Assembly: GCA_964390945.1 (NCBI GenBank)
Contig: CAYMIV010000002.1
Span: forward strand, 1,784 to 65,783
Direction of reading: 5' to 3'
DNA length: 64,000 nt
Source of the DNA: an uncultured Candidatus Saccharibacteria bacterium
GTDB taxonomy: Bacteria > Patescibacteriota > Minisyncoccia > Phycocordibacterales > UBA918
In this document: positions 11,346 through 56,275 of the stretch, piece after piece
Layout of the letters: every line of letters begins with the position of its first letter
Position numbering within the stretch: position 1 is the stretch's first letter
Made by a program: the position numbers and the translations under genes
Notes under the pieces: generated by a model
What the model was told of the DNA's origin: nothing
The model's input: only the letters and a program-made list of their open reading frames with translations
The model's database searches: none

Positions 11346-11617
11346 GGAAATCTCCTCGGTGTTCCACGTGCAACACTACTTGAAGGAGCGGGGAAGTGCA
11401 AGGTGCACATATCCAAATGTGGTCACAAATCACTAGGTATCTTTGTTCGCTTCACTCCAAACATACTAAGTGTTCTCGACCCCACCTCGACATTTTTCTT
11501 TCTTTATTGAAAGAAAAATAAGCCTGCGTTTGAACACGCGTACGCAAGTGAAGCATTTCACTTGCTAGACTCAAAAACCATGCTTTCTTAAAAGAAAGGT
11601 TTTTGAGTCTACGCGTG

Positions 11618-11689
11618 TGCACCCACCAGGACTCGAACCTGGCACGACGGTTCCGAAGACCGTAATGATATCCACTTCACCATGGGTGC
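11618..11689 (-). tRNA. tRNA-Arg(UCG)
   Basis: Acceptor GCACCCA/TGGGTGC, anticodon stem ACGGT/ACCGT with loop CTTCGGA (anticodon UCG), T-arm CCAGG-TTCGAGT-CCTGG. It overlaps the spurious 5' extension of the cca ORF. Confidence 0.8.
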
Positions 11690-11769
11690 GTATTGGCGGT
11701 TCGCCTATCATACGTTTGACAAAGCCAAATTGCAATGCAAAAAGGGCTTTGAACTGCTATAATCGTCGC

Positions 11770-30280: not shown

Positions 30281-32437
30281 ATGGAAAAGAAGGTATATAC
30301 GCACATCGTGGGCGGTAAAACACTTTCCGCAGAATTTACCAATCTCACCAACCAGGCGCACGGTTCCGTTCTGGTTCGCCTCGGCGAAACGGTCGTACTC
30401 GTAACGGCGGTGATGAGTGATCGTGAAAATCCGGGACTTTCGTACTTCCCGCTCTCGGTCGAGTTTGAGGAAAAATTCTATGCGAGCGGACAAATTCTTG
30501 GGAGCCGTTTCATGCGGCGAGAGGGTCGGCCGTCAGACGGCGCGGTTCTTTCGGCGCGTATTGTTGATAGGACTATTCGCCCTCTCTTCAACCACGCAAT
30601 CCGCAACGAGGTGCAGGTAATCGTCACTGTACTTGCAATGGGTGATGATGATCCGGACACGCTCGGGGTTATCGGTGCCTCTCTCGCACTTGGTACATCA
30701 GATATTCCCTGGGATGGTCCCGTTGGTGCTGTGCGTATTGGGAAGCGAAACGATTCGGGTGAAATCATCATCAATCCCACCTATGCCGAACGTGAAGCGG
30801 GCGTGCTCGCATACGAAGTGCTCGCGTGCGGGAAAGACGGACACATCAACATGATTGAAACTGCTGGCAATGAAATCTCCGAGGCGGTGGTGGTGCACGC
30901 GCTCGAAGAGGCGGTTGCCATCAACACCGGCCTTGAGGAGTTCCAGAAAACAATTATGCGCGAAATCGGCAAAGAGAAACGGGGCGTTGTCATACACGAG
31001 GCGGCAGACAACCTCCGCTCGCTCTTTGATTCGACTATGCGAAGTCGGCTTTCTGAAGCACTCTTCTCAAACCGCTCTGGGAAGTCTCACCTCTATGAAC
31101 TCAAGGAGGTGTGGCTCGATGAGGTCAAGACAGCGCTTCCGGAAGCAAGCGAAGCCGACGCTGGTGACCTTTTCGAACACGGTGTCGATGAGGAACTGCA
31201 CAGGGGAGTCATCGAGCGTGGGAAGCGCCCGGATGGGAGGGGAATGGATGAGGTGCGCGAACTATACGCACAAGCGGGAGGTTTGTCTCCTGTTCTCCAT
31301 GGATCGGGAATATTCTATCGCGGTGAAACGCACATCCTCACCGCACTCACCCTGGGCGGTCCAGACGATTCCCAAATTCTCGACACCATTGAAGAAAATG
31401 GCACAAAAAAACACTTCATGCACCACTACAATTTTCCTCCGTTTTCCGTCGGCGAAACTGGTCGCGTCGGGGGGCAAAACCGTCGCATGATCGGTCATGG
31501 CGCTCTCGCGGAAAAGGCGCTCGTTCCCGTAATTCCGAAGAAGGAGATTTTTCCGTATACTATTCGTCTCGTTTCTGAAACGCTCGCCTCAAACGGCTCA
31601 AGCTCAATGGGTTCAGTCTGCGCTTCGACCCTCGCGCTCATGGATGGCGGCGTACCGATTCTTCGACCAGTTGCTGGTATTGCATCGGGACTCATGATGG
31701 AAAATGATACAACTTATACTCTCCTCACCGATATCCAGGGGCCGGAAGATGAACATGGCGACATGGACTTTAAGGTTGCGGGAACGCGCGAAGGTATCAC
31801 CGCAATCCAGATGGACGTAAAAGTTGCCGGTATTCCGGTTCCAGTTCTCGCCGAGGCGCTTGAAAAGGCTCGACTGGCGCGCCTCACCATTCTCGATGTC
31901 ATTGAAAAAGAATTGGGTGCTCCTCGTGCGGACATAAGCCCCCGCGCCCCAAAGATACTCGTACTCTCCATACTTCCCGACCAAATCGGCCTCGTTATCG
32001 GTTCGGGAGGAAAAACCATCAACGGTATAAAAGAGGAAACTGGTGTTGATGAAATCACCATCGAGGATGACGGAACCGTGTTCATCACAGGGAAGAACGG
32101 GACTGCCGAATCTGCCCTCGCACGAATACAGGCACTGACTCGGGTATTTGAGATTGGCGAACGACTTGATGCAACAATAACCCGTATCGCAACCTTCGGC
32201 GCGTTTGCAAAAATGAATGAGCAGAACGAGGGACTCATCCACATATCTGAAATTGCACCGTTCCGACTTGAGACGCTTGACGGCATTCTCAAGGTCGGCG
32301 ACGTAGTTCCGGTGATTGTCTCCAAGATAGAAGAAGGAAAGATCGGCCTCTCAATCAAGCGGGCGGATCCTGATTTTGCGCAAAAAAAAGGAATTAAACC
32401 GCCTGAGCGGAAACCTTTCCCCGAAAAGCGGGGATAG
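30281..32437 (+). CDS. pnp: polynucleotide phosphorylase
   Basis: 718 aa; two RNase PH domains, a KH domain and an S1 domain. Confidence 0.95.
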   Translation: MEKKVYTHIVGGKTLSAEFTNLTNQAHGSVLVRLGETVVLVTAVMSDRENPGLSYFPLSVEFEEKFYASGQILGSRFMRREGRPSDGAVLSARIVDRTIRPLFNHAIRNEVQVIVTVLAMGDDDPDTLGVIGASLALGTSDIPWDGPVGAVRIGKRNDSGEIIINPTYAEREAGVLAYEVLACGKDGHINMIETAGNEISEAVVVHALEEAVAINTGLEEFQKTIMREIGKEKRGVVIHEAADNLRSLFDSTMRSRLSEALFSNRSGKSHLYELKEVWLDEVKTALPEASEADAGDLFEHGVDEELHRGVIERGKRPDGRGMDEVRELYAQAGGLSPVLHGSGIFYRGETHILTALTLGGPDDSQILDTIEENGTKKHFMHHYNFPPFSVGETGRVGGQNRRMIGHGALAEKALVPVIPKKEIFPYTIRLVSETLASNGSSSMGSVCASTLALMDGGVPILRPVAGIASGLMMENDTTYTLLTDIQGPEDEHGDMDFKVAGTREGITAIQMDVKVAGIPVPVLAEALEKARLARLTILDVIEKELGAPRADISPRAPKILVLSILPDQIGLVIGSGGKTINGIKEETGVDEITIEDDGTVFITGKNGTAESALARIQALTRVFEIGERLDATITRIATFGAFAKMNEQNEGLIHISEIAPFRLETLDGILKVGDVVPVIVSKIEEGKIGLSIKRADPDFAQKKGIKPPERKPFPEKRG

Positions 32438-41724: not shown

Positions 41725-44058
41725 ATGTCTCTGGCGCAATATAAAACCTTTGGAAAATTGTTCATTACAGGCATTCTTTCGTGTATTCTTTTACTTTCCG
41801 CATATACGCCTTTTCTCTTTCCGACACAGGTTGCTCATGCAATCCCCGTTGAAATAACAACCGATTTTTCCCTTGCGGGTCTCGGGACGTGGGCGGAGTC
41901 GATACTCACTACCGCAAACACGCTCATGCTTCGCTTCAAGGAAATGATACTCGACCCCGGCGTCTGGTTGTTAACCACAATCATCCTACAAAAACTATCG
42001 CAACAGATTATCAGTTGGATAAATTCCGGCTTTAATGGAAGTCCCGCGTTCGTCAGTGATTTTGGCGGATTTCTTCGCGACATTGCTGACAGAACCGCTG
42101 GTGAATTCATATTCGGTGGTGATTTAGGTTTTCTCTGCTCCCCGTTCAAACTCAACGTACAGTTGGCGCTCGATATCCAATATCAGCGGAGCCGGAATAC
42201 GGATTTTAAATTTGATTCCCAGTGTACGCTTTCCGGTGTTGTGTCGAATATTCAAAACTTCATGGATGGTGATTTCTTTGCGGGGGGTTGGGATGGCTGG
42301 TTTGAGATGACCCAACGCGCACAGAATAATCCGTATGGTGCGCTCGTCCTTGCGCAGGAGCAACTCGCACTGCGGGTTGCAAACACCAAGCAACGGGAGA
42401 CCAAACTGCTTGATTTCAGCAAGGGATTTTTCAGCCAGCGGCACTGTGAGAGCGGGGGGCCAGGCGACCCCCCCACATGCTGGACGGTCACACCGGGAAG
42501 TGCGATTGAGAATCAACTTAATAGCGCCCTCGATATTCCTATGGGACGACTGACTATTGCAGACGAGTTTGATGAGATTCTTGCAGCGCTGTTTGCCTAT
42601 CTTGTTCCAACCATGCTTAACGGCGCAGGCGGTCTTCTTGGACTCACGAATGGTTCGTATGGGGGAAGCAGCGGGACATACTACACACAGCTTGCAAACG
42701 CTTCGACAACTTCCTCTGCACAGTGCGGAGCGGCATCAATTGGAAGTTACACAAGTGCACCAACCACCGACCTTTGCACCTATGGGGCTCCGTCGCCCGT
42801 GTCAGGATCGGGTCCGTGGACATGGACCTGCACCACTCCGCAGGGATCTGTTTCATGTACTGCAAACACCCAGTCTGGAGTACTGCCTCCGGGTGGAGGC
42901 GGTGGGGGGGGAGGGGCACAAGATTTTTGTTCACAATACAGCGATGTTATGGAGAACACCGCCACATGGGGAGACTATTCACGTCAACTTACCGGGCCAT
43001 GGCGTACTGGTATTCTCGTATATGAATTCACTGTGCCGCAAACATTCGCAACATACTCGGGGGTCGGTTACACATCAATGGCGGAGTACCAGGGTCCGCC
43101 CCAATTGCGCCGCATGACACTTTCTCGGAGTAAGTGTGACTTCAGACCAACAGATCCGACTGGTGTAAACGGACCGTTTGAGGTCAGCACTGGGATGCAA
43201 ACGACCATATACTGGAACGTTGGAGTTGCACCGCACTCGCTTATACCAGGAGAAACCTACTACATGAATTTTGCCAACGTCGACCCGGCTACCTCGGGAA
43301 TAAGTGACTGTCCACAAAGTGCCTGCAATGCCGGATATAGCACCATATGGCCAAGCGGAGGTAGTGGTAGTGGAGGAGGCGGGGGGGGAGGTGGGGGAAC
43401 GCCGGGAAACGGTGTGTGTGGTACAGCTCAGGGTGGTTTGTACTCAAGCGCACCAACAACAAATCTCTGTTTGTCGGGCACCGCATCTCTGCCGGTACTT
43501 AACTCCACAAGCCAGTGGTTGTGGTCGTGTGGATCCGGAACCAACATAGTTACCTGCACAGCAAACAATCCCGCAGGAACCCCTTCGATATCTACAAACA
43601 TCACTTCATACGTCGCAAATCATCTTCCAATCACCTATAACAATGTGAATCCTGCAACCATGTCGTTACGAACATGGAATATCACAACCGGCGGAGTCCA
43701 CACCACAGCTCTTCCGGGGTGGTCAGGAACCAATTTTGACGTCACATACCCCTCGGGTTTCTTTGTTGCAGGAAACAGTGTCGAGATCTCCATTATAAAT
43801 ACTTCAAGTAGTGCGCGGGTCGGTAACCTTGTGAGTTTCATTATACCAAGTGGCGGTGGCGGGGGGGGAGGTGGGGGTGGCGGTGGAAGTCCTGCAATCC
43901 CCGCGTTTCCGTGGACGGTGATGGGAGTACAGTACGCCTCACAGGCACAATTTGATGCTGCGGTTGTTGCAAACACCTTCATGGGGCAGGCTGTCAGAAT
44001 AAACGGCGTCACGGTACTCTCGGGATTCGGACCGGGAATTGACGGGACATCACCATAA
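41725..44058 (+). CDS. large secreted surface protein with Gly-runs and duplicated 4-Cys modules
   Basis: Signal peptide. Two copies of the module CG.A..G.Y[ST]SAPTT[DN]LC...W.W.C....V.CTAN, each after a poly-Gly linker (GGGGGGGG, GGSGSGGGGGGGGG, GGGGGGGGGGGGG). Three poly-G(8) nucleotide tracts lie in the coding sequence. Confidence 0.5.
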   Translation: MSLAQYKTFGKLFITGILSCILLLSAYTPFLFPTQVAHAIPVEITTDFSLAGLGTWAESILTTANTLMLRFKEMILDPGVWLLTTIILQKLSQQIISWINSGFNGSPAFVSDFGGFLRDIADRTAGEFIFGGDLGFLCSPFKLNVQLALDIQYQRSRNTDFKFDSQCTLSGVVSNIQNFMDGDFFAGGWDGWFEMTQRAQNNPYGALVLAQEQLALRVANTKQRETKLLDFSKGFFSQRHCESGGPGDPPTCWTVTPGSAIENQLNSALDIPMGRLTIADEFDEILAALFAYLVPTMLNGAGGLLGLTNGSYGGSSGTYYTQLANASTTSSAQCGAASIGSYTSAPTTDLCTYGAPSPVSGSGPWTWTCTTPQGSVSCTANTQSGVLPPGGGGGGGGAQDFCSQYSDVMENTATWGDYSRQLTGPWRTGILVYEFTVPQTFATYSGVGYTSMAEYQGPPQLRRMTLSRSKCDFRPTDPTGVNGPFEVSTGMQTTIYWNVGVAPHSLIPGETYYMNFANVDPATSGISDCPQSACNAGYSTIWPSGGSGSGGGGGGGGGTPGNGVCGTAQGGLYSSAPTTNLCLSGTASLPVLNSTSQWLWSCGSGTNIVTCTANNPAGTPSISTNITSYVANHLPITYNNVNPATMSLRTWNITTGGVHTTALPGWSGTNFDVTYPSGFFVAGNSVEISIINTSSSARVGNLVSFIIPSGGGGGGGGGGGGSPAIPAFPWTVMGVQYASQAQFDAAVVANTFMGQAVRINGVTVLSGFGPGIDGTSP
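42904..42911 (+). repeat. poly-G(8) homopolymer inside the surface-protein CDS
   Basis: gggggggg encodes part of a Gly run; candidate slipped-strand site. Confidence 0.8.
43381..43388 (+). repeat. poly-G(8) homopolymer inside the surface-protein CDS
   Basis: gggggggg. Confidence 0.8.
43861..43868 (+). repeat. poly-G(8) homopolymer inside the surface-protein CDS
   Basis: gggggggg. Confidence 0.8.
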
Positions 44059-44063
44059 AAACC

Positions 44064-46028
44064 ATGCGACGCCCCTTTGACAACAAAATACAAATTGGAT
44101 TGCGGAATGCGGTTTTGGCGTTTCTTCTTGTTGGGGGCGTGCTGATCTCTCTGGGCGCAGCACAATCAGCCTGGGCAGATACTGTCGGTGATGCAGACAT
44201 AAAACCACCCACAAACGGGGTATCAAACACAACCTCATACGGCAACCTCATTGGCTACGTATTACTCACACCCGCCGCCGGCATCACCTGGCTTGGCGGG
44301 AAGGCGCTCGAGGTGAGCGTGGAGAAGTTGGTGCTTGGGATGAAAAATATATACGACGGGGGGCTTGGTTACACAGTGGAAACGGTTTGGAAAATCGTCC
44401 GCGACCTCTGCAATCTTGCATTTATATTCGGCTTCATCTATCTCGGCATTCGCACCATCTTTGATTCTGAGAGCGCCAACGTGAAGCGTATGCTCGCCTC
44501 CATCATTATCGGGGCACTCCTTATCAACTTCAGTCTCTTCTTTGCGAAGTTCATCATTGACGTCGGGAACGTATTTGCGGTCAACATCATGACCACCCTG
44601 AGCATTGACGGGTCGAGCTTGACCTACCAGATTGCTGACACGCTTGGTCTCACCACGATTTATAATCCGAAGCAGAGCGGTGCAATCCTGGGGAATCTAA
44701 CTGCCGGTGCCAATATCACGTTCTTTGTGATGGCGGCGATATTTCTTCTCGTTGCCGCATTTGTGATGTTTGCGGGGGCATTTCTCCTCATGATACGGTT
44801 TGTTGCGCTCGTTTTTATTATGATTTTTTCGCCTGTTCTTTTTGGGGCGACGGTGTTTCCACAAACCCAGCGCTACGCGAGTATGCTTTGGTCTAAACTC
44901 ATCAGTTACTCGTTCTTCGCGCCGGCCTACCTCTTTTTGCTCTATGTATCGCTCGCCGTTTTAAACGGCATCATGACATCCTTTGGTAAAGGCAAGCTGG
45001 CGGATGCACTGCAGGGAACCGCAGGCAGCGCACCGACATCGGGGATGTTTGATGTGGTTCTTCTCTTTGTCATCTGTATTCTATTCCTCATCTACTCGCT
45101 CAAGATTGCACAGCAGCTGAGCGTCTTTGGTGCCGACAGGGCGATATCACTCACAAAACAATGGAGCGGAAGAGCGACAGCAGGACTTGCGGCTGCGGCG
45201 GGGCGCGCAACCATTGGAAAATATGCGCACTCTATGTCCGAGGATGAACGTCTGAAAGATCGCGCGAGCCAAAAGGGCGTACGTGGTTTTGTTGCTCGAC
45301 AACAACTTAAGGCGAGCCGCGTTGTAGGTGATAGTTCGTTTGATGCCCGGAACACCGCCGCCGGCAAAGCATTGGGTTTTGAGGGCAGAAAGGGCGGATA
45401 TACAACGATGAAAAAGGAAGTTGAGGAGAGGGAAACTAAATTTGCTCGATCGCTAGGTGAAATAAAGGATGATGATGTTGAGGTACAGGCACGAAAGAAG
45501 GAGTTTTCTTTCGAACAATCTCGTCTTCGAACACTGGAAGAGGAATTGAATAGAATTGATAAAAATGACGTTGGGGCTCGTGTGGCAAAACGTGATGAAA
45601 TTGAGAAGCAAAAAGAGTTAATACAGAACTCACAGGTTGCGTTCGAAAGAGAAAAGCAGCGAAGAATCGTCGGGAGCACGTATTCAAAACCAAATCCCGG
45701 TGATGCTGCACTAATAAAAAAACAAAAGGACGATATTAAAACACTGATGAATGATATTAAAACGGAGTGGGATGTATACGTTCGGTTGCCTGATGTGGCA
45801 AAGGAGGGCCATCGCTCTGTGATACAAACCTTAAAAACCCAACTCGACAATCTCCAGTCAAAGCACGCTGAACTCCTCAAGAATCAGCCAGACCGTGGCT
45901 ATGCTGGTGTGCTTGAGAGTAGTAAGCGCATAACTGCTTGGCCAAAGGGTCGTATGGTAACACACGAAAGGGAGGCGGGCAGGGCGATACGAAAAACTGC
46001 CGAGAAGGGATTACCGAAAGAAAAATAA
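44064..46028 (+). CDS. VirB6/TrbL-like polytopic membrane protein with a C-terminal coiled-coil (T4SS-like)
   Basis: Signal-like N-terminus, about six TM helices in the TrbL/VirB6 arrangement, long charged coiled-coil tail. Confidence 0.5.
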   Translation: MRRPFDNKIQIGLRNAVLAFLLVGGVLISLGAAQSAWADTVGDADIKPPTNGVSNTTSYGNLIGYVLLTPAAGITWLGGKALEVSVEKLVLGMKNIYDGGLGYTVETVWKIVRDLCNLAFIFGFIYLGIRTIFDSESANVKRMLASIIIGALLINFSLFFAKFIIDVGNVFAVNIMTTLSIDGSSLTYQIADTLGLTTIYNPKQSGAILGNLTAGANITFFVMAAIFLLVAAFVMFAGAFLLMIRFVALVFIMIFSPVLFGATVFPQTQRYASMLWSKLISYSFFAPAYLFLLYVSLAVLNGIMTSFGKGKLADALQGTAGSAPTSGMFDVVLLFVICILFLIYSLKIAQQLSVFGADRAISLTKQWSGRATAGLAAAAGRATIGKYAHSMSEDERLKDRASQKGVRGFVARQQLKASRVVGDSSFDARNTAAGKALGFEGRKGGYTTMKKEVEERETKFARSLGEIKDDDVEVQARKKEFSFEQSRLRTLEEELNRIDKNDVGARVAKRDEIEKQKELIQNSQVAFEREKQRRIVGSTYSKPNPGDAALIKKQKDDIKTLMNDIKTEWDVYVRLPDVAKEGHRSVIQTLKTQLDNLQSKHAELLKNQPDRGYAGVLESSKRITAWPKGRMVTHEREAGRAIRKTAEKGLPKEK

Positions 46029-46047: not shown

Positions 46048-46635
46048 ATGGAAATAACACGTGAAGAGGCACAGAAGATGTTGGCAATGCGACTTGATCA
46101 GTATCCTGAAACAAAGGCGCTCGTCAACTCACCCTCTTTTAAGAACAATCTTGCGCAGATTGCTGAGTTTTTTCAGGTTGATTCTGCCCTTTTGCCAATT
46201 ATTGAAAACGAGGTGCTGGTCGTTTTGTGTTTCTACGCTCCACTTACGGAGCTCGCACAAAATATCAGCGAGAGTACCGGGTTGCCGGTGAACCTTTGCG
46301 AAAACATCGCAACAATGCTTAATGCTCTTGTTTTTTCTCCTGTGCATGACGACCTCGCTGCCTTTGAATTATTGTGGGAGGAGGAACTTAAGAAAACCAC
46401 AACCGTCCCCGATGCAAATTCCGACCTCAAAGAGCGGCTCGATTTGAGACCCCAGAACGCTTCCGCTCCGTGGGGAGCATCACAACCCCCCAAACCCCTC
46501 ACCCGTGAAGAACTCATGAGCGCCCTTGCGCCGAAGCGCACCATGACAAGCGACATTGAAGCGATGCGTGCAAAGACCGGGGGTGCAAGTATTGTCGAAC
46601 CGCCGCCGCCACCCGCATCGCCCTCACCACAGTGA
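46048..46635 (+). CDS. hypothetical protein (Pro-rich C-terminus)
   Basis: 195 aa ending PPPPASPSPQ; no domain recognised. Confidence 0.3.
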   Translation: MEITREEAQKMLAMRLDQYPETKALVNSPSFKNNLAQIAEFFQVDSALLPIIENEVLVVLCFYAPLTELAQNISESTGLPVNLCENIATMLNALVFSPVHDDLAAFELLWEEELKKTTTVPDANSDLKERLDLRPQNASAPWGASQPPKPLTREELMSALAPKRTMTSDIEAMRAKTGGASIVEPPPPPASPSPQ

Positions 46636-46718
46636 CATGAGCCGCCCGAGAAGGTGGCTCGTGTGTTTTCCGCACGGGGAAGCGGCTCGTATGTGTTGTT
46701 GGTGTACAATAGCGTTAT

Positions 46719-47117
46719 ATGCGCTTTGAGGTGCCGCAATTTATTGAAGTTGAAGATAAAATCGTCGGTCCTTTGACATGGCGTCAATTTGTGTATCTTG
46801 CAGGCGGTGCCGGAACTGTCATCATCCTGTTCTTTTTACTGCCTTTTTTAATCGCGGCAGTTCTCTCAATTCCGTTTGTCGCCCTCGCGGGATTTCTCGC
46901 CTTCCACCAGGTGAACAACAGACCGTTTTCGTTTTTTCTTGAGGCGTTTTTTAATTATTTCACGAAAAGCCGCCTCTATCTCTGGAAGAAAGATGTCGCA
47001 CAAACAATCGTGACAAAGCGCGAGGCGCCCGTGTCTGTGGCACCGAAAGTCATTCCCGGGAAAACAAACCTTTCTGCACTCTCGACGAGGTTGGAACTTA
47101 ACAACATTCAAAAATAG
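46719..47117 (+). CDS. VirB3/PrgI-like small two-TM protein
   Basis: 132 aa with two adjacent TM helices immediately upstream of VirB4, the typical VirB3 position and topology. Confidence 0.4.
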   Translation: MRFEVPQFIEVEDKIVGPLTWRQFVYLAGGAGTVIILFFLLPFLIAAVLSIPFVALAGFLAFHQVNNRPFSFFLEAFFNYFTKSRLYLWKKDVAQTIVTKREAPVSVAPKVIPGKTNLSALSTRLELNNIQK

Positions 47118-47118
47118 C

Positions 47119-47748
47119 ATGGATACGAACGTACCTTCCCAACAATTTCTTCCCATTCAGGATGTCCGCGACGGTATTGCGGTGCTTGAGAACGGGCAAA
47201 TGTGCATCGTGCTCCTTGCCACCTCCATCAACTTTGCGCTCAAGTCGACTGATGAGCAGGAGGCGATACTCTCCCAATTTCAGACATTTCTGAATACGCT
47301 CGATTTCTCGCTTCAGTTTTATATTCAATCCAGACGGCTCGATATCCGACCCTACATGGAAATCCTCCGCGCGCAGGAAGTCCACCAATATAATGACCTC
47401 ATGAAAGTCCAGCTCCGCGAGTACATGGAGTTTATTCGCGCGTTCACCGAAGAAGTCGACATTATGTCGAAAAATTTCTTTGTGGTAATCCCTTATACGC
47501 CCACCGCTTCCGTTGATACCTCGCAGCTCAAGAAGGTGCTCAATTTCGGAGAAAAGAAACAGAGTCCCGAGATTGACCCGGCGAAGTTTGTCGAACACAG
47601 AAGCCAACTTGAACAGCGAGTCACGGTTGTCGAGCAGGGGCTCGCGCGCATCGGTATTCGCACCGCGCCGCTCGGCACTGATGAGCTCATCGAACTCTAT
47701 TATCACATCTTTAATCCGCAGGACATGTCGTCTGCACCGAAGCGATAG
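47119..47748 (+). CDS. VirB4/TrbE/CagE-family ATPase, N-terminal domain (upstream of an in-frame TAG)
   Basis: The 209 aa resemble the VirB4 N-terminal domain; the ORF ends at TAG 47746-47748 and the same frame continues at 47752. Confidence 0.6.
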   Translation: MDTNVPSQQFLPIQDVRDGIAVLENGQMCIVLLATSINFALKSTDEQEAILSQFQTFLNTLDFSLQFYIQSRRLDIRPYMEILRAQEVHQYNDLMKVQLREYMEFIRAFTEEVDIMSKNFFVVIPYTPTASVDTSQLKKVLNFGEKKQSPEIDPAKFVEHRSQLEQRVTVVEQGLARIGIRTAPLGTDELIELYYHIFNPQDMSSAPKR

Positions 47749-47751
47749 CGT

Positions 47752-49551
47752 ATGGGAATATTTGATTTCATTGCAAAAAACATGCAGAGCAGGGGAGAGC
47801 CGGACAATCGCGCCGACGCGGACACCCCCCTCACGACGCGCGATGTTATCGCTCCGTCAGCCATCAGTGTCGGTCCGCGCAACATCAATGTGAGCGGAAA
47901 ATTCGCCCGCGTCTTCTTTGCGGTTTCATACCCTCGATATCTCAACGATGGTTGGATGGAGCCGATTCTCAACATTGAACGCGAAATAGACATCACCATT
48001 GTCGTTCATCCCATCAACACAGCGGAAACCTTGAAGAAATTTCAAAAAAAGGTTGCCGAGGTGCAGAGCCAAATCAACCTCCGCGCGGAGCAGGGTATGG
48101 TGCGCGACCCACAACTTGATGCCGCGTATCGGAACCTTGAGGAGCTCCGCGACAAACTCCAGCAAGCGGAGGAGAAACTGTTCAATGTCGGTTTGTACAT
48201 TGCGCTCTATGGAGACTCCGAGGCGGAGCTCAACAAGAGTGAGGCGGAAATTAAAAGTTCGCTCGATGCCCGCCTCATTTACATCAAACCCGCACTTTTC
48301 CAACAAGAGCAGGGTTTCCGCAGCATCATACCGACTGTTTCAGATGAACTCTTGGTGCACAGCAAATTCAACTCTTCGCCACTTTCCAGTTTTTTTCCAT
48401 TCACTTCGTTTGACCTCACCTCAAACAACGGTATTCTCTACGGGATAAACCGCCACAACTCATCGCTTATTCTTTTCGACCGCTTTTCGCTCCCCAACTA
48501 CAACTCGGTCACCTTTGCAACGTCCGGCGCAGGAAAGTCATACGCGATAAAGTTGGAAATACTCCGCTCCCTCATGTTCGGGACCGAAATTATTGTCATC
48601 GACCCGGAGCGGGAATATGAGTATTTGGCAGAGTCGGCGGGCGGCCGCTTCTTCAACATTTCACTCTCTTCGTCCCACCACATCAATCCGTTCGACCTGC
48701 CGATACCGCAACCCGATGAGAGTCCGGATGATTTGCTCCGCTCTCACATCATTGAACTTGTCGGTCTCTTTAAACTCATGCTTTCCGGTCTTACTCCGGA
48801 AGAGGACGCGATTATTGACCAGGCGCTCCGGGAGACGTACGCACTCAAAGACATCACTGGGAACACCGACTTCACCAACATGAGCCCGCCCCTTCTTTCC
48901 GATTTCGAAATGGTACTTGCGGGCATGGAGGGAAGCGAGTCGTTGGTGCAGCGCCTCTCAAAATACACAACAGGCACGTGGGCTGGGTTTGTGAATCAGC
49001 CAACCAACGTTGATATCAATCAAAAATTCATTGTCTTTTCTCTCCGTGATATGGAGGAGGAGCTGAAGACAATTGCAATGTATATCGTGACGAACCATAT
49101 CTGGGGCGCAATTCGCCGCGAACTTAAAAAACGTCTTCTCGTCATTGATGAGGCGTGGTGGATGCTCAAGTCGCCCGACACAGCGTCGTTTCTCCACAAC
49201 CTCGCCAAGCGCGGACGCAAGTACTATCTTGGACTTGCCACCATAACCCAAGATGTGGACGATTTTCTCCGTTCACCGTATGGCGTACCAATGATCACCA
49301 ACTCTTCAATGCAACTTCTCATGAAGCAATCCCCGACAGCAGTCGATACGCTCCAGAGCGTATTCAACCTCACCGACGAGGAAAAGTTTCTTCTTCTTGA
49401 ATCTGGTGTTGGTGAAGGTATTTTCTTTGCGGGCATGAAGCATGTTGCCATTAAAACAATTGCTTCGTATACAGAAGACCAGATTATCACATCAGACCCG
49501 TCTCAGCTCCTTCAGATACGGAACGCTCGGCTTGAGCTTCAAGGAAAATAA
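47752..49551 (+). CDS. VirB4/TrbE/CagE-family ATPase, ATPase domain (downstream of the in-frame TAG)
   Basis: Walker A ATSGAGKS, Walker B LLVIDEAW and other VirB4 C-terminal motifs. Combined with 47119..47748 the length is ~810 aa, typical for VirB4. Confidence 0.8.
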   Translation: MGIFDFIAKNMQSRGEPDNRADADTPLTTRDVIAPSAISVGPRNINVSGKFARVFFAVSYPRYLNDGWMEPILNIEREIDITIVVHPINTAETLKKFQKKVAEVQSQINLRAEQGMVRDPQLDAAYRNLEELRDKLQQAEEKLFNVGLYIALYGDSEAELNKSEAEIKSSLDARLIYIKPALFQQEQGFRSIIPTVSDELLVHSKFNSSPLSSFFPFTSFDLTSNNGILYGINRHNSSLILFDRFSLPNYNSVTFATSGAGKSYAIKLEILRSLMFGTEIIVIDPEREYEYLAESAGGRFFNISLSSSHHINPFDLPIPQPDESPDDLLRSHIIELVGLFKLMLSGLTPEEDAIIDQALRETYALKDITGNTDFTNMSPPLLSDFEMVLAGMEGSESLVQRLSKYTTGTWAGFVNQPTNVDINQKFIVFSLRDMEEELKTIAMYIVTNHIWGAIRRELKKRLLVIDEAWWMLKSPDTASFLHNLAKRGRKYYLGLATITQDVDDFLRSPYGVPMITNSSMQLLMKQSPTAVDTLQSVFNLTDEEKFLLLESGVGEGIFFAGMKHVAIKTIASYTEDQIITSDPSQLLQIRNARLELQGK

Positions 49552-49569
49552 TCATCTCAACACTACGCT

Positions 49570-50427
49570 ATGCGGGAGCGTGAAAATGACGAATACACAG
49601 ACGAGGAAGGGGTGCGAAATGCTGCCGAATATTCGGATTTTACCAGTGTGCCAGAGGACGGACCGGACTTGCCCGCGAATGAATCAACCATTGAACGCAT
49701 CGATGCCACATACCGCTCACTCAACCGAGGCGCGTCTGGGAGAAGGAGCAACAGATATCGTTCTCCAGCAGCACGAAGGTTGGATGAGCGACCGGGGGTT
49801 GCAAAAGACGCCTACCGAAGGGTGCGCACGGTCCGCAATAACGCCAAAACAGAGGCTTCTCGCGTCTCTACATCAACCAATGTTCGTGACGCGGCACACA
49901 AACAATTCGCCACTCCACTGTCAAAATCCTCCGCCTTTCCTGGGGGTGGTTCGGCGGCTATAAAAACCACCGGGCGTGCCGCCGCTCGTTTTCTCATTAT
50001 GCCCGCCGTGTTTGCGTATGGTGCCCAACTCGTACTTGGACTTATAGCGTTTGGTTTGGTTGGGGTTCATGTGGTTATTCAAGAAATGACGAGCGGGGGA
50101 GGTGTTGTGGCAACGGTGACTGGTTGGTTGCTCGAGGCGGGGAAGACCGTCGTCGGTTGGTTTGCTGACATTCCCGGATTTGATGAGATGGGGATGTTTT
50201 TTTGGTTTTTCGCCTTTCTTGTTGCGCTTTGTGTATTTCTCGGATACATTCTCTTTTTTCATTTTATAGGAATTTCCTTTATGGATTCTGTGACCGCAAC
50301 AATCATTCTTTTTGTTTGTATTGTGCTCTGCTACGTGATTCCGATATTCCCCGGAGCCCTTATCTGGGTGGTATATGTTGTGGCGAAAGACACAGTGAAA
50401 AGTGCGCGGGAGATTGCGGGTGTGTGA
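49570..50427 (+). CDS. hypothetical polytopic membrane protein
   Basis: Arg/Ser-rich cytoplasmic N-terminus followed by about five TM helices. Confidence 0.35.
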   Translation: MRERENDEYTDEEGVRNAAEYSDFTSVPEDGPDLPANESTIERIDATYRSLNRGASGRRSNRYRSPAARRLDERPGVAKDAYRRVRTVRNNAKTEASRVSTSTNVRDAAHKQFATPLSKSSAFPGGGSAAIKTTGRAAARFLIMPAVFAYGAQLVLGLIAFGLVGVHVVIQEMTSGGGVVATVTGWLLEAGKTVVGWFADIPGFDEMGMFFWFFAFLVALCVFLGYILFFHFIGISFMDSVTATIILFVCIVLCYVIPIFPGALIWVVYVVAKDTVKSAREIAGV

Positions 50428-50441
50428 TAAACTTTACCTAT

Positions 50442-51449
50442 ATGGGCATTTGTTCATATGCGCGCATACGGTTGTTTGTTTCTATATTCATTGTAGGTGT
50501 TTTTGTTGCGTTCTTTTCTTCTTCCGCACAAGCACAGAGTTTTACAAGCCTCTTGTCGGGGGGTGGAATTTCTCTTTCTTCACAGCCATCTTTTCCTCTT
50601 CCGCTCTATCCCGTTTCTGTTTCGCTCGAGACTCCAGGGCTAAATTTGGCGGGTTCGAATATTGCATGGTACGTTGATGGTGTTGAGTTTTCGGAAGGAA
50701 AAAATATGCGCTCAATCACCTTTACCACCGGCGAGGTGGGAACGAAGCACACAGTGCGCGCACAAATCACAAACAATGGTGGTGTATCACAGGAAACAAG
50801 CCATTCATTTGTGACAACCAAGGTTGATGTTGTGCTCGAGGCCGACACTGTGGTTCCGCTCTTGTATAAAGGGAAGCCGCTTCCCACGCCGCAAGGGAGC
50901 GTTCGCGCCATTGCGCTGCTCCATGGTTTTAATGGTGACGCAACCACTTATGGGTATGATTGGCGCCTCGATAATAATTCACTGTATGGGGGTCCGGTCC
51001 AGGGTAAGCCGTTTATGGAGTTTGAGGTGCCGCCTTTTGGGAGACACAGACTTTCGGTGCAGGTGTATGATCGCCGCGGAACGTTGGTGGGTGGGGGCGG
51101 TGTGGAAGTTGCCCCAGTACAGCCAGAACTGTATTTTTATGAGGAACATGCCCTTAGTGGGATGAATATGCGGGCGCTTACCGCAGACTTTATTCTCGAG
51201 GGTGACGAAACAACTATTGTTGCATCTCCTTATTACACCGATAATACTAATGGGGGCGCGGCGGTTCACTCCTACATGTGGTCGCTTAATGGTGATTTGG
51301 TTTCAGCAACCGGTGACCGCCCCAACACACTGACGCTTCGTCCGGTTGGAGAAGGGGAGGGTTCGGCAAGGGTTGATTGCCGTCTTTCGGTCGATCGTAC
51401 GATACCGCAACAGGTTTCGAACTCGTTTACAATTTACTACAAAAAATAA
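50442..51449 (+). CDS. hypothetical secreted protein (beta-rich)
   Basis: Signal peptide (ARIRLFVSIFIVGVFVAFFSSSAQA); start reset to the ATG at 50442. Confidence 0.35.
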   Translation: MGICSYARIRLFVSIFIVGVFVAFFSSSAQAQSFTSLLSGGGISLSSQPSFPLPLYPVSVSLETPGLNLAGSNIAWYVDGVEFSEGKNMRSITFTTGEVGTKHTVRAQITNNGGVSQETSHSFVTTKVDVVLEADTVVPLLYKGKPLPTPQGSVRAIALLHGFNGDATTYGYDWRLDNNSLYGGPVQGKPFMEFEVPPFGRHRLSVQVYDRRGTLVGGGGVEVAPVQPELYFYEEHALSGMNMRALTADFILEGDETTIVASPYYTDNTNGGAAVHSYMWSLNGDLVSATGDRPNTLTLRPVGEGEGSARVDCRLSVDRTIPQQVSNSFTIYYKK

Positions 51450-51450
51450 C

Positions 51451-52050
51451 GTGTTTTTGGGAAATTGGTGTCGAATTGTTTATGTGAGTGTGTATTTTTG
51501 GATATGTTTTGGTGTGTGTTTCTTTGTCTTTACCCTCTCTGCATTTGCCGCCGATTACATCCCCCTCACCACCCTCCCTGGTTTGTCACCAAATACGCCT
51601 GTCACGAGCATTCCTGATTTTCTCAACAGAATCTACATCAGCATTATCGGGATTGGCGCCATGTTTGGAGTGGTAAAAATCGCCATCGCGGGTTTCAAGT
51701 GGGCGTTTTCAGACATCATTACCGATAAAGCGTCGGCAAAAAAAGACATTCAGGGTGTTTTACTCGGTCTTGCAATCCTTCTTATTCCTTGGGTTGTGTT
51801 GTACACCATTAACCCTGACTTGGTTAAACTGGATGTTTTAAATTCACTAAAGAACGCCCCCTCAATGGGCACCGGTTCTGGATCTGGGTCGGGTTCGGGG
51901 TCGGGTTCAACTCAAGTAACTGCCCTTTGCTCAACTCAAACTTTTGACTCGGGTGCGTCGTGCCAAACATGGTGTAGTGCATTGTGGAATGGTTCGTATA
52001 ATGCGGGACCTCCGGCGTCTTGTACATATACAATATCTGTCACCCCTTGA
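51451..52050 (+). CDS. candidate VirB2/TrbC-like pilin (start uncertain: GTG at 51451 or 51484)
   Basis: Signal peptide, two hydrophobic helices separated by a short loop (IYISIIGIGAMFGVVKIAIAGF / VLLGLAILLIPWVVLYTI), a (GS)6 linker and a Cys-containing C-terminus. Confidence 0.35.
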   Translation: MFLGNWCRIVYVSVYFWICFGVCFFVFTLSAFAADYIPLTTLPGLSPNTPVTSIPDFLNRIYISIIGIGAMFGVVKIAIAGFKWAFSDIITDKASAKKDIQGVLLGLAILLIPWVVLYTINPDLVKLDVLNSLKNAPSMGTGSGSGSGSGSGSTQVTALCSTQTFDSGASCQTWCSALWNGSYNAGPPASCTYTISVTP

Positions 52051-52064
52051 AGTATTAAGATTTT

Positions 52065-53231
52065 ATGAAAAAATCCCTTATCATCCTCGGCGCACTCCTC
52101 ATTGTGGTGGTTCTTGTTGTGTGGGGATACCTCATGGTATTTGGAGCACCACAGAGCACGGCCGACATTTTTACCTCTTTTGGTATTCGTGGGGAAACAC
52201 AAACAGATTCTTACAACACCCCACCTCCCGACACAATCTCACCAGTAACAGACAATGAGGTTTCAGTATCGGCGCTCCGCCAAGTTGTTGTCGGTATCGA
52301 GGTTGTTGGCGCGGTATTTGTGGGAGATGTGTTGCGTTTTGTTGAGCGAGGAACCGGTCACATATATGATTTGAATATTGTTTCCGGAGAAGTTAAAAAA
52401 GTAAGCGGCACTACCATACCAAAAACAAGCAGTGCTGTGTTTTCAAAAAACGGTTCCCGCGTTGCGATTACACACGAGGATGGCGGTGCATTTCTTACCA
52501 CAATCGGGACGATTGATGGGGGTGGTGTTTTACTCAATATGGTTGGTTTGCAGCCAAATTCGGTTGAGGTTGTGTTTATTTCCGACTCTGTTGTGCGCTA
52601 CCTTGAAACACTTGCTGATGGCACGGTGGGGGTTGAACTTAATCTCGACACGGAGAAAAAAACAAAACTATTCACCACACCTCTCAAACAGTTGCGGCTT
52701 GCGGTAGCGAGCACAACCACCTATGCGTACACAACCCCTTCATCGAAACTGCTTGGTTTTGTATATACGGTTGATGGTGGTTTGCATTATGTATCAAACG
52801 GCGGATTTGGCCTTCTTCCGGTCCCATATGGTGAGGGTGTGGTCCTTTCCACACTAACTGAAAATGGTGTTTTTACTTCGAGTGTTGTGGGTGCACAAAA
52901 CACACCACTCCCTATATCCCTATTTCCGGAGAAGTGCGTCGGGAATCCGAAAACAAACACACTGACGCTTTATTGTTCTGCTCCCGCGCTCGCGCTTTCG
53001 GGTGATTATCCCGATATGTGGTACAAGGGGTTGGTTTCTCTCAAAGACAGTTTCTGGGAGGTTGACCCGGGTACAAACCAATCATTTCTTTTGAGTGATA
53101 TGTTTTTTGAGGGTGGGCGCGAGATTGATGTTTCAAGTATTGGTGTAAGTGTGGACGGATCCTTCGTCTATATGATAAATAAAAACGACAACTCCTTGTG
53201 GTTGTATGATACAACCACACGATCCGAGTAG
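52065..53231 (+). CDS. hypothetical secreted/membrane-anchored beta-rich protein
   Basis: N-terminal TM/signal segment; repetitive beta-strand-like sequence. Confidence 0.35.
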   Translation: MKKSLIILGALLIVVVLVVWGYLMVFGAPQSTADIFTSFGIRGETQTDSYNTPPPDTISPVTDNEVSVSALRQVVVGIEVVGAVFVGDVLRFVERGTGHIYDLNIVSGEVKKVSGTTIPKTSSAVFSKNGSRVAITHEDGGAFLTTIGTIDGGGVLLNMVGLQPNSVEVVFISDSVVRYLETLADGTVGVELNLDTEKKTKLFTTPLKQLRLAVASTTTYAYTTPSSKLLGFVYTVDGGLHYVSNGGFGLLPVPYGEGVVLSTLTENGVFTSSVVGAQNTPLPISLFPEKCVGNPKTNTLTLYCSAPALALSGDYPDMWYKGLVSLKDSFWEVDPGTNQSFLLSDMFFEGGREIDVSSIGVSVDGSFVYMINKNDNSLWLYDTTTRSE

Positions 53232-53233
53232 TT

Positions 53234-53983
53234 TTATTGGTGGGATGTTTGTTTGAGGCCTTTATGCCGAACCACATATTCCTGCAAAATTGCCATGATG
53301 TTGCTCACAAAGAAGTAAAGTGCAATGGCGCTTGAGATTGAGTATGCGAAGAATGTAATAAGAATTGGCATCATGTATCTCATCTGCATGTTCATACTTC
53401 TTGATATATCTTCTTTGAAGTTTGGTGCTGCTTTGGGGTCGCGTGGCTCTGTTTTTGGTATTGAGAGGTGTCCATGGAGGTACTGTGTTGCGCCTGCAAG
53501 GAGCGCGAGTGGTAAACTTTTTGCGGTGATGTCGAGAATCCCAAAGAAAAGCATTGTAATTTTTTCCGGGTTTGGAACAAACCCATAGAGTAGGGCTGTG
53601 TTTATATTGGGGAGCGGAACCCCTCCTCCATTTGAAACAGCGAGATAGAGCGCAATGATGATGGGAATTTGAATAAAGAGGAGAAGGATGCTCAAGAATG
53701 GATTTACTCCCGCGTTTTGATAGAGCTCCATTGTTTTAAGAGCGAGCTCCTCCTTTTTTTCCTTATATTTTTCTTTGAGGTCTTTGAGTTTTGGTTCAAG
53801 ATCCCTCATTGCAATTTGTGTTTTTGCCGCCTTAAGAGAGATGGGGAGGAGAATGAGTTTTACCAACACCACAGTGAGGATAATGGCAATCCCGACGTCG
53901 CCTTTTGGAACGGCGTCAATAAAGAAAACGAGTGTGTTGTATACCGGGTCAAAGAATATGGTATGCCAAATTGTTCCAAACAT
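53234..53983 (-). CDS. yidC: membrane protein insertase YidC/Oxa1 (short form)
   Basis: Conserved YidC core helices; lies in the rpmH-rnpA-yidC operon context. Confidence 0.85.
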   Translation of the reverse strand: MFGTIWHTIFFDPVYNTLVFFIDAVPKGDVGIAIILTVVLVKLILLPISLKAAKTQIAMRDLEPKLKDLKEKYKEKKEELALKTMELYQNAGVNPFLSILLLFIQIPIIIALYLAVSNGGGVPLPNINTALLYGFVPNPEKITMLFFGILDITAKSLPLALLAGATQYLHGHLSIPKTEPRDPKAAPNFKEDISRSMNMQMRYMMPILITFFAYSISSAIALYFFVSNIMAILQEYVVRHKGLKQTSHQ

Positions 53984-53993
53984 AGTGGTGATT

Positions 53994-54305
53994 TTATGAT
54001 TGTGAGACGAGGTTGGTAATGTGGGCGCGCAGTTCCGGTGGGGTAAGTGTGTTGATTGGTTTTTTCAGTATAAAAATATATACGCCGTTTTTTATTCCTG
54101 TTGTTCGTATTGTGTTGTATATTCGCCGGCGTGCTCTGTTTCGTTCAGCCGCAAGTTTTACGATTTTTTTTGGTATTACCACAGCGCAATGCAGTTTTGG
54201 GTGTTGTGAGTAAACACAATAGAGGTGTGGTGCGTGCGTGCGTCTCCCTGACGAAAAAAAACGATTGAACACCTCTCTCGTCAATCGTTCTTTTTTCTTC
54301 ATCAT
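53994..54305 (-). CDS. rnpA: RNase P protein component
   Basis: Basic ~103-aa protein with the RnpA-like motif, sitting between rpmH and yidC. Confidence 0.75.
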   Translation of the reverse strand: MMKKKERLTREVFNRFFSSGRRTHAPHLYCVYSQHPKLHCAVVIPKKIVKLAAERNRARRRIYNTIRTTGIKNGVYIFILKKPINTLTPPELRAHITNLVSQS

Positions 54306-54320
54306 GGGTATAGTCTACGA

Positions 54321-54458
54321 CTATACACTAAGTTTTGCACGGCCTTTTTTGCGCCGCGCTTTGAGAACTTTTTTTCCTTTTTTTGTTGCGGAGCGCACAA
54401 GATACCCGTGTGTTGTCGCTCGCTTCTTCTTTTTTGGTTGGTATGTTTGTTTGGACAT
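54321..54458 (-). CDS. rpmH: 50S ribosomal protein L34
   Basis: [45 protein letters not shown], 45 aa. The reported ORF is a spurious 5' extension, so the start is reset to the ATG at 54458. Confidence 0.9.
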
Positions 54459-54635
54459 GTTGTTTGTCTGATTTCGCCACTCTACACTACATGGAAAACA
54501 AAAGCAATCTTTTTTTGTTCTCCACACGTTGTACACAGTGGTTGTGCAGGTTTGTTTTTTATATGGCGAATAATCAACTATATTTACACTTTTCCACAGG
54601 TCGGTATAATGTCTGTCATTACATTTGTTTTTCAG

Positions 54636-56024: not shown

Positions 56025-56275
56025 GGTGTGGAAAATGTGTGTTTTGTTCTTTACAGATTGTGGTTTTCCTGTGTTCTTTCGTTTCACTCTATAAAAATAA
56101 ATTATTTATAGGGCGTTACTCACATTATTATTATTCCTTTGTTTATAAAATACACATATTTATACAAAATTGTTTTAAAAAATATGTTGTATTTATTGTA
56201 TAAAATCCACAATCCACACATCCACACAACTAATAATAAAATTGTTTTTTAAAAAAAGAAAAATAAAAACACACT
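56025..56275. promoter_or_regulatory. candidate oriC (DnaA boxes plus AT-rich unwinding region) between dnaA and dnaN
   Basis: TTTTCCACA on the reverse strand at 56027-56035; tandem aaTCCACAa x3 at 56203-56228; the surrounding AT content is above 80%. More DnaA-box-like 9-mers lie upstream of dnaA (TTCTCCACA ~54527, TTTTCCACA ~54588). Confidence 0.55.

What the first reader, a model, noticed from the sequence alone, without database searches (positions are those of the whole stretch)
47119..49551. VirB4 ATPase interrupted by a single in-frame TAG codon
ORFs 47119..47748 and 47752..49551 are in the same frame and are separated only by TAG (47746-47748) plus one codon (...APKR * R MGIF...). Together they make ~810 aa, the normal VirB4 length. 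The first part matches the VirB4 N-terminal domain and the second carries the Walker motifs. Possible explanations are a recent pseudogenising nonsense mutation, a sequencing error, a genuine two-polypeptide VirB4, or programmed readthrough. The rest of the locus looks intact, which makes the case interesting. TAG is used as an ordinary stop elsewhere in the window (for example pnp), so a reassigned amber codon is unlikely.
Basis: seen in the sequence. Interest (0 to 1): 0.62.

Follow-up and report, generated by a model that had tools for sequence, protein, structure and literature searches.

The report
Conserved two-gene VirB4 (TrsD plus ATPase)
The "interrupted" VirB4 gene is two intact neighbouring genes: a small TrsD-like protein equivalent to the VirB4 N-terminus, then the VirB4 ATPase. 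This arrangement is conserved in thousands of Patescibacteria and in Gram-positive conjugative plasmids and is already published, so the shared reading frame is a coincidence.

Summary
ORF1 (47119..47748, 209 aa) ends in TAG. One codon later, ORF2 (47752..49551, 599 aa) starts in the same frame. The "interruption" reading is wrong.

- ORF1 has 4,776 homologues. The best 120 (63-82% identity) are all stand-alone proteins of 203-216 aa.
- All 40 related Patescibacteria loci that could be scored have the same two genes. The frame relation is 10 / 13 / 17 (in frame / +1 / +2). Stops are TAA 29, TAG 7, TGA 4. Spacers run from -4 to 496 nt.
- The closest relatives (81% and 76% identity) are out of frame.
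- Both genes are under strong purifying selection (pN 0.08-0.24, pS about 0.8).
- TAG ends 10 of 44 long ORFs in the window.
- pSK41 has the same order (small membrane protein, TrsD, 672-aa ATPase) and the same ATPase N-terminal boundary. Bacillota plasmids show the same gene order.
- The ORF1 model (pLDDT 88.8) matches only R388 TrwK/VirB4 chains in the PDB.
- A 2025 paper (PMC12102498) already reports TrsD next to virB4 in 1,664 Patescibacteria cases, near dnaA, as seen here.

Verdict: an ordinary, already known split VirB4. It is not a pseudogene, a sequencing error or recoding.

The parts
44064..46028 (+). VirB6/TrbL-like polytopic membrane protein (654 aa), part of the same T4SS cluster and given as context
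   Evidence: Pfam PF04610 TrbL, E 1.8e-5, 25.1 bits, just under the 25.9-bit cutoff
46719..47117 (+). PrgI family (VirB3-like) small membrane protein, 132 aa. Its stop lies 1 nt before the ORF1 start codon.
   Evidence: Pfam PF12666 PrgI, E 7e-12, 46 bits against a 27-bit cutoff. The same gene sits upstream of ORF1 homologues in L043, L044, L045 and L047.
47119..47748 (+). ORF1: stand-alone TrsD-like / 'TraC-like' protein (209 aa), equivalent to the first ~200 residues of a full-length VirB4
   Evidence: 4,776 homologues, with the best 120 all 203-216 aa. Matches the N-terminal positions of VirB4 models and the TrsD/TraD model. The AF2 model (pLDDT 88.8) hits only R388 TrwK/VirB4 chains. Colinear with residues 8-209 of the fused homologue P0183. 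pN 0.12-0.24 against pS ~0.8.
47746..47751 (+). Junction: genuine TAG stop of ORF1 plus a 3-nt spacer (CGT) before the ORF2 ATG
   Evidence: In 40 orthologous loci the spacer is -4 to 496 nt, all three frame relations occur, and all three stop codons are used.
47752..49551 (+). ORF2: VirB4-family T4SS ATPase (599 aa). It comprises the second half of the N-terminal region plus the Walker A/B ATPase domain, and begins with the conserved peptide MGIFDF.
   Evidence: NF045971 CD1110-family VirB4, 366 bits against a 325-bit cutoff, model positions 182-734 of 752. 4AG5 VirB4 C-terminal domain, E 4e-42. Aligns 31-568 to residues 36-616 of the pSK41 672-aa ATPase, E 3e-36. Orthologues are 596-600 aa.
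51346..52050 (+). Possible VirB2-like T4SS pilin (weak), given as context
   Evidence: Pfam PF18895 T4SS_pilin, E 6e-5, 23.5 bits, below the 26.6-bit cutoff

Best explanation
The region holds two separate, intact, co-transcribed genes of a chromosomal Patescibacteria (Paceibacteria/Kaiserbacteria-like) type IV secretion system. They lie in the order prgI (VirB3-like), trsD-like (ORF1), virB4 (ORF2). ORF1 is the first ~200 residues of a canonical VirB4 made as its own polypeptide. ORF2 is the rest of VirB4: the second half of the N-terminal region plus the ATPase domain. The TAG is the real stop of ORF1, and the ATG three bases later is the real start of ORF2. Their shared frame is a one-in-three coincidence. 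By inference from homology, ORF1 binds ORF2 non-covalently to rebuild a complete VirB4 protomer. By analogy with the VirB4 N-terminal domain in the R388 structure (my own background knowledge, not tested here), it would help anchor the ATPase hexamer to PrgI/VirB3 at the membrane. The tight spacing (1 nt, then 3 nt) suggests coupled translation of the three genes. This genome shows no Shine-Dalgarno motifs before any gene inspected, so ORF2's start context is normal for it.
For: - Shown: the best 120 of 4,776 ORF1 homologues are 203-216 aa stand-alone proteins at 63-82% identity.
- Shown: 148 of the best 150 representatives at 50% clustering are stand-alone proteins of 161-443 aa.
- Shown: all 40 related GTDB loci that could be scored (36-81% identity) have ORF1 followed by ORF2. 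Frame relations are 10 / 13 / 17, stops are TAA 29 / TAG 7 / TGA 4, and spacers run from -4 (ATGA overlap) to 496 nt. The two nearest relatives, L025 (81%) and L001 (76%), have 5-nt and 2-nt spacers and so are out of frame.
- Shown: the ORF2 start peptide MG[IL][FL]D is conserved at the start codon.
- Shown: ORF1 has pN 0.12-0.24 and ORF2 has pN 0.08-0.12, against saturated pS of ~0.8.
- Shown: ORF1 and ORF2 match positions 2-105 and 182-734 of the same 752-position VirB4 model. They are colinear with residues 8-209 and 212-791 of a naturally fused 797-aa homologue.
- Shown: the 14 best PDB matches of the ORF1 model are all R388 TrwK/VirB4 chains (E 1e-4 to 7e-3, prob 1.00). The next hit is noise at E 0.18.
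- Shown: pSK41 carries a 135-aa protein, then trsD (227 aa), then a 672-aa DUF87 ATPase, and ORF2 residue 31 aligns to residue 36 of that ATPase, giving the same N-terminal boundary. Geobacillus and B. thuringiensis plasmids carry PrgI, then an ORF1 homologue, then a DUF87 ATPase, with a 14-nt overlap.
- Published: PMC12102498 reports TrsD, with remote homology to the VirB4 N-terminus, as the most abundant T4SS component in Patescibacteria. It was associated with virB4 in 1,664 cases, near dnaA and ksgA, and is listed as essential in Ca. S. epibionticum ML1. The window has ksgA at 39786, yidC at 53234, dnaA at 54408 and dnaN at 56276.
Against: - No protein-level data exist for this genome, so the physical ORF1-ORF2 and ORF1-PrgI interactions are inferred from homology and synteny only.
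- ORF1 scores far below the curated cutoff of the NCBIfam TrsD/TraD model (20.6 against 200 bits). Its profile alignment to pSK41 TrsD is only moderate (hhalign E 9.5e-5, probability 59%). Common descent of the Patescibacteria protein and staphylococcal TrsD is therefore likely but not proven here.
- Rare fused forms exist (2 of 150 representatives), so the split is not obligatory.
Confidence: 0.93

Rival explanations
1. A recent nonsense mutation has pseudogenised a once full-length VirB4.
For: Fused full-length homologues exist in a few relatives (P0183 at 797 aa and P0252 at 898 aa), and the two ORFs here share a frame.
Against: The stop is present in 40 of 40 related loci down to 36% identity and in the best 120 database homologues. 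Both halves are under strong purifying selection. A conserved ATG with the MG[IL][FL]D peptide follows the stop. The nearest relatives are out of frame, so the stop cannot be a new point mutation in a fused gene.
Confidence: 0.01
2. A sequencing or assembly error created the TAG.
For: The window comes from a metagenome-type assembly, and read-level data could not be inspected.
Against: A second assembly of run SRR16481182 is identical over 1,412 bases spanning the junction, though possibly from the same reads. A stop at this exact protein position is the rule in independent genomes from many studies.
Confidence: 0.01
3. Programmed TAG readthrough produces a fused ~810-aa VirB4 in addition to the two separate proteins.
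For: In this genome the ORFs share a frame with only one intervening codon. Natural fusions show that a fused protein is tolerated.
Against: The in-frame arrangement is not conserved. It occurs in 10 of 40 loci, below the 1/3 chance expectation, and three of those have further stops in the spacer. Stop identity and context vary, and some loci have ATGA overlaps or spacers of 100-500 nt. No Rfam element occurs at the junction. Any readthrough here would be incidental, not programmed.
Confidence: 0.03
4. TAG is reassigned to an amino acid in this organism.
For: None found.
Against: TAG terminates 10 of 44 long ORFs at the positions expected from homology, for example pnp, ksgA and the M23 peptidase. 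Orthologues use TAA or TGA at the same position. No suppressor tRNA is among the 4 tRNAs in the window.
Confidence: 0.005

Closest known systems
TrsD-VirB4 pair of the Patescibacteria T4SS (PMC12102498, Microb Genom 2025)
   Same: A stand-alone ~200-aa protein with remote homology to the VirB4 N-terminus sits directly next to virB4, together with PrgI/VirB3, VirB6 and a VirB2-like gene. The cluster is chromosomal and lies near dnaA and ksgA.
   Different: Nothing substantive. The only local peculiarity is that the two genes happen to share a frame with a 3-nt spacer.
trsC-trsD-trsE (traC-traD-traE) of the staphylococcal conjugative plasmids pGO1/pSK41 (MPF_FATA, pGO1 subclass)
   Same: The order is the same: small membrane protein, then a ~200-230-aa TrsD, then a 600-670-aa DUF87/VirB4 ATPase lacking the first ~200 residues of canonical VirB4. 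ORF2 aligns almost end to end with the pSK41 ATPase and shares its N-terminal boundary.
   Different: Sequence similarity of ORF1 to TrsD is remote (NF041427 at 20.6 bits against a 200-bit cutoff; hhalign E 9.5e-5). The pSK41 system is plasmid-borne and conjugative, with a relaxase and a coupling protein nearby. None was seen among the window ORFs scanned.
Full-length (fused) monoderm VirB4 ATPases, e.g. the CD1110 family (NF045971) and Mbov_0397 family (NF045975); R388 TrwK structure
   Same: ORF1 plus ORF2 together cover the model colinearly (positions 2-105 and 182-734 of 752). ORF2 passes the family cutoff. The ORF1 fold matches TrwK chains.
   Different: Here the protein is made as two polypeptides. 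Rare Patescibacteria relatives (L047) are fused.

Membership tests
VirB4-like conjugal transfer ATPase, CD1110 family (NCBIfam NF045971) | Whole-protein score at or above the curated cutoff (325 bits) | tested here: met
   ORF2 scores 366.4 bits, E 3e-109
VirB4-like conjugal transfer ATPase, CD1110 family (NCBIfam NF045971) | Walker A and Walker B nucleotide-binding motifs and a VirB4 C-terminal domain | tested here: met
   ATSGAGKS and LLVIDEAW in the translation. Residues 222-580 match the 4AG5 VirB4 C-terminal domain at E 4e-42.
VirB4-like conjugal transfer ATPase, CD1110 family (NCBIfam NF045971) | One polypeptide covering the whole model, including the first ~180 positions | tested here: not met
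   ORF2 covers model positions 182-734 only. Positions 2-105 are matched by the separate ORF1.
TrsD/TraD family conjugative transfer protein (NCBIfam NF041427) | Score at or above the curated cutoff (200 bits) | tested here: not met
   ORF1 scores 20.6 bits, E 3.2e-4, over model positions 26-142 of 201. This is a remote relative, not a member in the NCBIfam sense.
TrsD/TraD family conjugative transfer protein (NCBIfam NF041427) | Stand-alone ~200-aa protein encoded between a VirB3-like gene and an N-terminally short VirB4-like ATPase | tested here: met
   Window order is PrgI, ORF1, ORF2. pSK41 order is a 135-aa protein, trsD (227 aa), then a 672-aa ATPase, with the same ATPase boundary.
TrsD/TraD family conjugative transfer protein (NCBIfam NF041427) | Detectable homology to authentic TrsD of pSK41 | tested here: inconclusive
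   hhalign of the 75-sequence ORF1 profile against pSK41 TrsD gives E 9.5e-5 and probability 58.6% over 168 columns
Pfam PF26593 'TraC-like' | Match to the family model | tested here: inconclusive
   The precomputed annotation of the identical protein and of all 120 best homologues lists PF26593. My own scan of the local Pfam copy did not report it and gave only PF11130 TraC_F_IV at E 0.009.
Patescibacteria chromosomal T4SS (PMC12102498) | VirB4 clustered with TrsD, PrgI/VirB3, VirB6 and a VirB2-like gene, near dnaA/ksgA, in a Patescibacteria genome | tested here: met
   Components found, with dnaA, dnaN, yidC and ksgA. The closest loci are all Paceibacteria, Kaiserbacteria or Patescibacteria MAGs. 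The VirB6 and pilin hits are just under their Pfam cutoffs.
Pseudogene by nonsense mutation | Orthologues carry an uninterrupted gene, and constraint is relaxed on the fragments | tested here: not met
   40 of 40 orthologous loci are split. pN is far below pS in both parts.
Programmed stop-codon readthrough | Conserved in-frame arrangement and conserved stop context across orthologues | tested here: not met
   Only 10 of 40 loci share a frame, stops and spacers vary, and overlaps occur

The most novel reading that the evidence does not exclude
Splitting VirB4 may be functionally exploited rather than neutral. The free TrsD-like module could be a separately dosed adaptor between PrgI/VirB3 and the ATPase hexamer. 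The strictly conserved MG[IL][FL]D peptide at the very N-terminus of the ATPase could be its docking motif, giving Patescibacteria a regulated assembly step for a T4SS that is essential for their epibiotic life. A weaker variant is that, in this genome only, incidental TAG readthrough yields a minor fused VirB4.
Probability: 0.12. Interest if true: 0.4.

Novelty: already known. Interest (0 to 1): 0.08.

Why it matters
It matters mainly as a caution for annotation. A VirB4 that looks truncated or interrupted in Patescibacteria or Gram-positive elements is normally the conserved TrsD plus VirB4 pair and should not be flagged as a pseudogene or a recoding event. Biologically the pair belongs to a T4SS reported as essential for the epibiotic lifestyle of Saccharibacteria. 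No function has yet been assigned to TrsD. The clean colinearity with fused VirB4 and the VirB4 N-terminal fold shown here support the simple idea that TrsD is the detached N-terminal module of VirB4.

Tried and rejected
- Sequence search of ORF1 against PDB chains found nothing even at E 10. The fold had to be reached through an AF2 model and Foldseek.
- The local Pfam scan did not recover PF26593 for ORF1.
- Foldseek output gives no target residue ranges. The claim that ORF1 corresponds to the N-terminal part of TrwK therefore rests on HMM model coordinates and colinearity with the fused P0183, not on the structural alignment itself.
- I suspected the rare fused homologue P0183 might be an artefact of a TGA=Gly gene call. 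Its DNA shows GGG and no stop in standard code, so that idea was rejected.
- I looked for a Shine-Dalgarno motif before ORF2 to argue for or against independent initiation. None of 19 gene starts in the window has one, so the test is uninformative.
- Rfam found only 4 tRNAs in the window and nothing at the junction.
- One related locus (L026) ended before ORF2, and one (L038) had no start codon in the scanned range. Both were left out of the tally.
- I did not search homologues of ORF2 in the large protein database, because the 40 loci already answered the question.

Full report
**1. Observation.**
- ORF1 runs from ATG 47119 to TAG 47746-47748 (209 aa).
- A single CGT codon follows, and ORF2 runs from ATG 47752 to the stop at 49549-49551 (599 aa) in the same frame.
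- The translation reads ...SSAPKR*RMGIFDF...
- TAG is an ordinary stop in this window. It ends 10 of 44 long non-overlapping ORFs, including pnp at 30281..32437.
- A second assembly of run SRR16481182 (L043) is identical to window 46692-48103 across the junction, though it may come from the same reads.

**2. What the two ORFs are.**
- ORF2 passes the curated cutoff of the CD1110-family VirB4 model (366 bits against 325) but matches only positions 182-734 of 752.
- ORF1 matches positions 2-105 of that same model (E 4e-6) and positions 112-235 of the Mbov_0397 VirB4 model (E 8e-9).
- ORF1 also matches the 201-position TrsD/TraD model weakly (E 3e-4).
- ORF2 residues 222-580 match the crystal structure of a VirB4 C-terminal domain (4AG5, E 4e-42). 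Residues 59-195 match PF03135. ORF2 therefore holds the second half of the classical N-terminal region as well as the ATPase domain.
- An AlphaFold2 model of ORF1 from a 75-sequence alignment is confident (pLDDT 88.8, pTM 0.76).
- Its 14 best PDB matches are all TrwK/VirB4 chains of the R388 T4SS (E 1e-4 to 7e-3). The next hit is noise at E 0.18.

**3. The decisive comparison.**
- ORF1 has 4,776 database homologues. The best 120, at 63-82% identity, are all 203-216 aa.
- In a library of 50%-identity representatives, 148 of the best 150 are stand-alone proteins of 161-443 aa. Only two are fused to an ATPase (797 and 898 aa).
- I fetched 42 related loci from GTDB species genomes. All are Patescibacteria MAGs: Paceibacteria, Kaiserbacteria, Moranbacteria, Uhrbacteria and a few with odd labels.
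- In all 40 loci that could be scored, ORF1 ends in a stop and a separate ORF2 follows.

| Feature across the 40 related loci | Result |
|---|---|
| Frame of ORF2 relative to ORF1 (in frame / +1 / +2) | 10 / 13 / 17 |
| ORF1 stop codon | TAA 29, TAG 7, TGA 4 |
| Spacer length | -4 nt (ATGA overlap) to 496 nt |
| In-frame loci with further stops in the spacer | 3 of 10 |
| Nearest relatives | L025 (81%) 5-nt spacer; L001 (76%) 2-nt spacer; both out of frame |

- ORF2 begins with a conserved MG[IL][FL]D peptide in the closer lineages.
- Against four relatives, non-synonymous differences are 0.12-0.24 per site for ORF1 and 0.08-0.12 for ORF2. Synonymous sites are saturated at about 0.8.
- These results rule out a recent nonsense mutation, a sequencing error as the cause of the split, and any conserved readthrough. 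The shared frame in this window is the expected one-in-three coincidence.

**4. Beyond Patescibacteria.**
- tblastn of ORF1 against plasmids finds 400 records, mostly Bacillus, Clostridium, Geobacillus and Paenibacillus.
- In Geobacillus pGspE55-1 and B. thuringiensis BTB_502p the order is PrgI, then a ~320-aa hypothetical protein (the ORF1 homologue), then a 636-661-aa DUF87 ATPase. The last two genes overlap by 14 nt.
- In the conjugative plasmid pSK41 the order is a 135-aa protein, trsD (227 aa), then a 672-aa DUF87 ATPase.
- ORF2 aligns residues 31-568 to residues 36-616 of that ATPase (E 3e-36), so the N-terminal boundary is the same.
- The ORF1 profile aligns to pSK41 TrsD over 168 columns, but only moderately (hhalign E 9.5e-5, probability 59%).

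**5. Fused relatives.**
- P0183 (797 aa) is colinear with ORF1 (residues 8-209) and ORF2 (residues 212-791).
- Its DNA (L047, GCA_964615945.1) reads ...CGC CAA GGG ATG GGC... with no stop in standard code. It keeps the relic MG start and sits in the same PrgI ... yidC-rnpA-dnaA neighbourhood.
- P0252 (898 aa) has a P/A-rich linker of about 110 aa at the junction.
- The break therefore lies in a flexible linker, and fusion and fission are both tolerated.

**6. Literature.**
- PMC12102498 (Microb Genom 2025) describes exactly this arrangement. [quoted passage not shown]
- It is the most abundant T4SS component found in Patescibacteria, with 2,272 homologues, 1,664 of them associated with virB4.
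- It is listed as essential in Ca. [quoted passage not shown]
- The clusters often lie near dnaA, dnaN, ksgA and rnpA.
- The window fits this description: ksgA at 39786-40604, VirB6-like at 44064-46028, PrgI at 46719-47117, a weak pilin hit at 51346-52050, yidC at 53234-53983 (-), dnaA at 54408-56024 and dnaN at 56276-57364.

**7. Mechanism.**
- Shown: there are two conserved genes under selection, which together are colinear with VirB4, and ORF1 has a VirB4-chain fold.
- Inferred: ORF1 associates non-covalently with ORF2 to complete the VirB4 protomer.
- Inferred by analogy with the VirB4 N-terminal domain in R388 (my own background knowledge): ORF1 links the ATPase to PrgI/VirB3 at the membrane.
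- Inferred: the 1-nt and 3-nt gene spacings suggest coupled translation.
- No Shine-Dalgarno motif precedes any of 19 gene starts inspected, so its absence before ORF2 says nothing.

**8. Verdict.** It is the conserved TrsD-like plus VirB4 gene pair of the Patescibacteria/monoderm T4SS. Interest is low. The residual novelty lies only in the unassigned role of TrsD and the conserved N-terminal peptide of the ATPase.

Noticed in passing
window 47752-47772, and the ORF2 starts in L001-L025: The VirB4 ATPase begins with a short conserved peptide, M-G-[IL]-[FL]-D-[FL]-[LI], directly at the start codon in about 25 Paceibacteria/Kaiserbacteria loci. A variable K/N/P-rich stretch follows. It could be a docking or membrane-contact motif, but its function is unknown.
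   Followed up: partly
L047 544-2937 (junction near 1195-1215); P0252: Rare natural re-fusions of the two genes exist. P0183 (797 aa) has GGG where relatives have the stop and keeps the relic MG start. P0252 (898 aa) carries a P/A-rich linker of about 110 aa at the junction.
   Followed up: yes
window, 19 gene starts (e.g. 815, 30281, 44064, 47752, 56276): No Shine-Dalgarno-like motif appears in the 25 nt upstream of any gene start inspected. Translation initiation in this genome appears to be SD-independent.
   Followed up: partly
window 39786-40604 and 53234-57364: The T4SS cluster lies about 5 kb from yidC (-), dnaA and dnaN, with ksgA just upstream. It is therefore next to the probable replication origin, the neighbourhood reported for Patescibacteria T4SS in PMC12102498.
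   Followed up: partly
window 41725-44058, 46048-46635, 49570-50427, 52065-53231: Four ORFs inside the T4SS cluster (777, 195, 285 and 388 aa) have no Pfam or NCBIfam match. They are candidates for lineage-specific T4SS components such as VirB8- or VirB1-like roles or surface proteins.
   Followed up: no
window 47119-47748: The precomputed annotation gives PF26593 'TraC-like' for the identical protein and all close homologues. The local Pfam-A scan did not report that family, which probably reflects a library version difference.
   Followed up: no
P0157-P0262; L044 4875-5831; L045 4869-5855: Many ORF1 homologues are 300-450 aa with a C-terminal extension. These include the ~320-aa versions on Bacillota plasmids, which overlap the ATPase gene by 14 nt. 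The extension was not characterised.
   Followed up: no
window 36417-37439 (-) and 62839-63909 (-): A LysM + M23 peptidase lies upstream of the cluster. The paper discusses this type as a possible VirB1 substitute. A PilT/T2SSE-type ATPase sits at the window's end.
   Followed up: no
window 11617-11689: tRNA-Arg(tcg) on the minus strand overlaps the first 73 nt of the mechanically listed GTG start of the CCA-adding enzyme/poly(A) polymerase ORF (11617-13239, +). The true start of that gene is probably further downstream.
   Followed up: no
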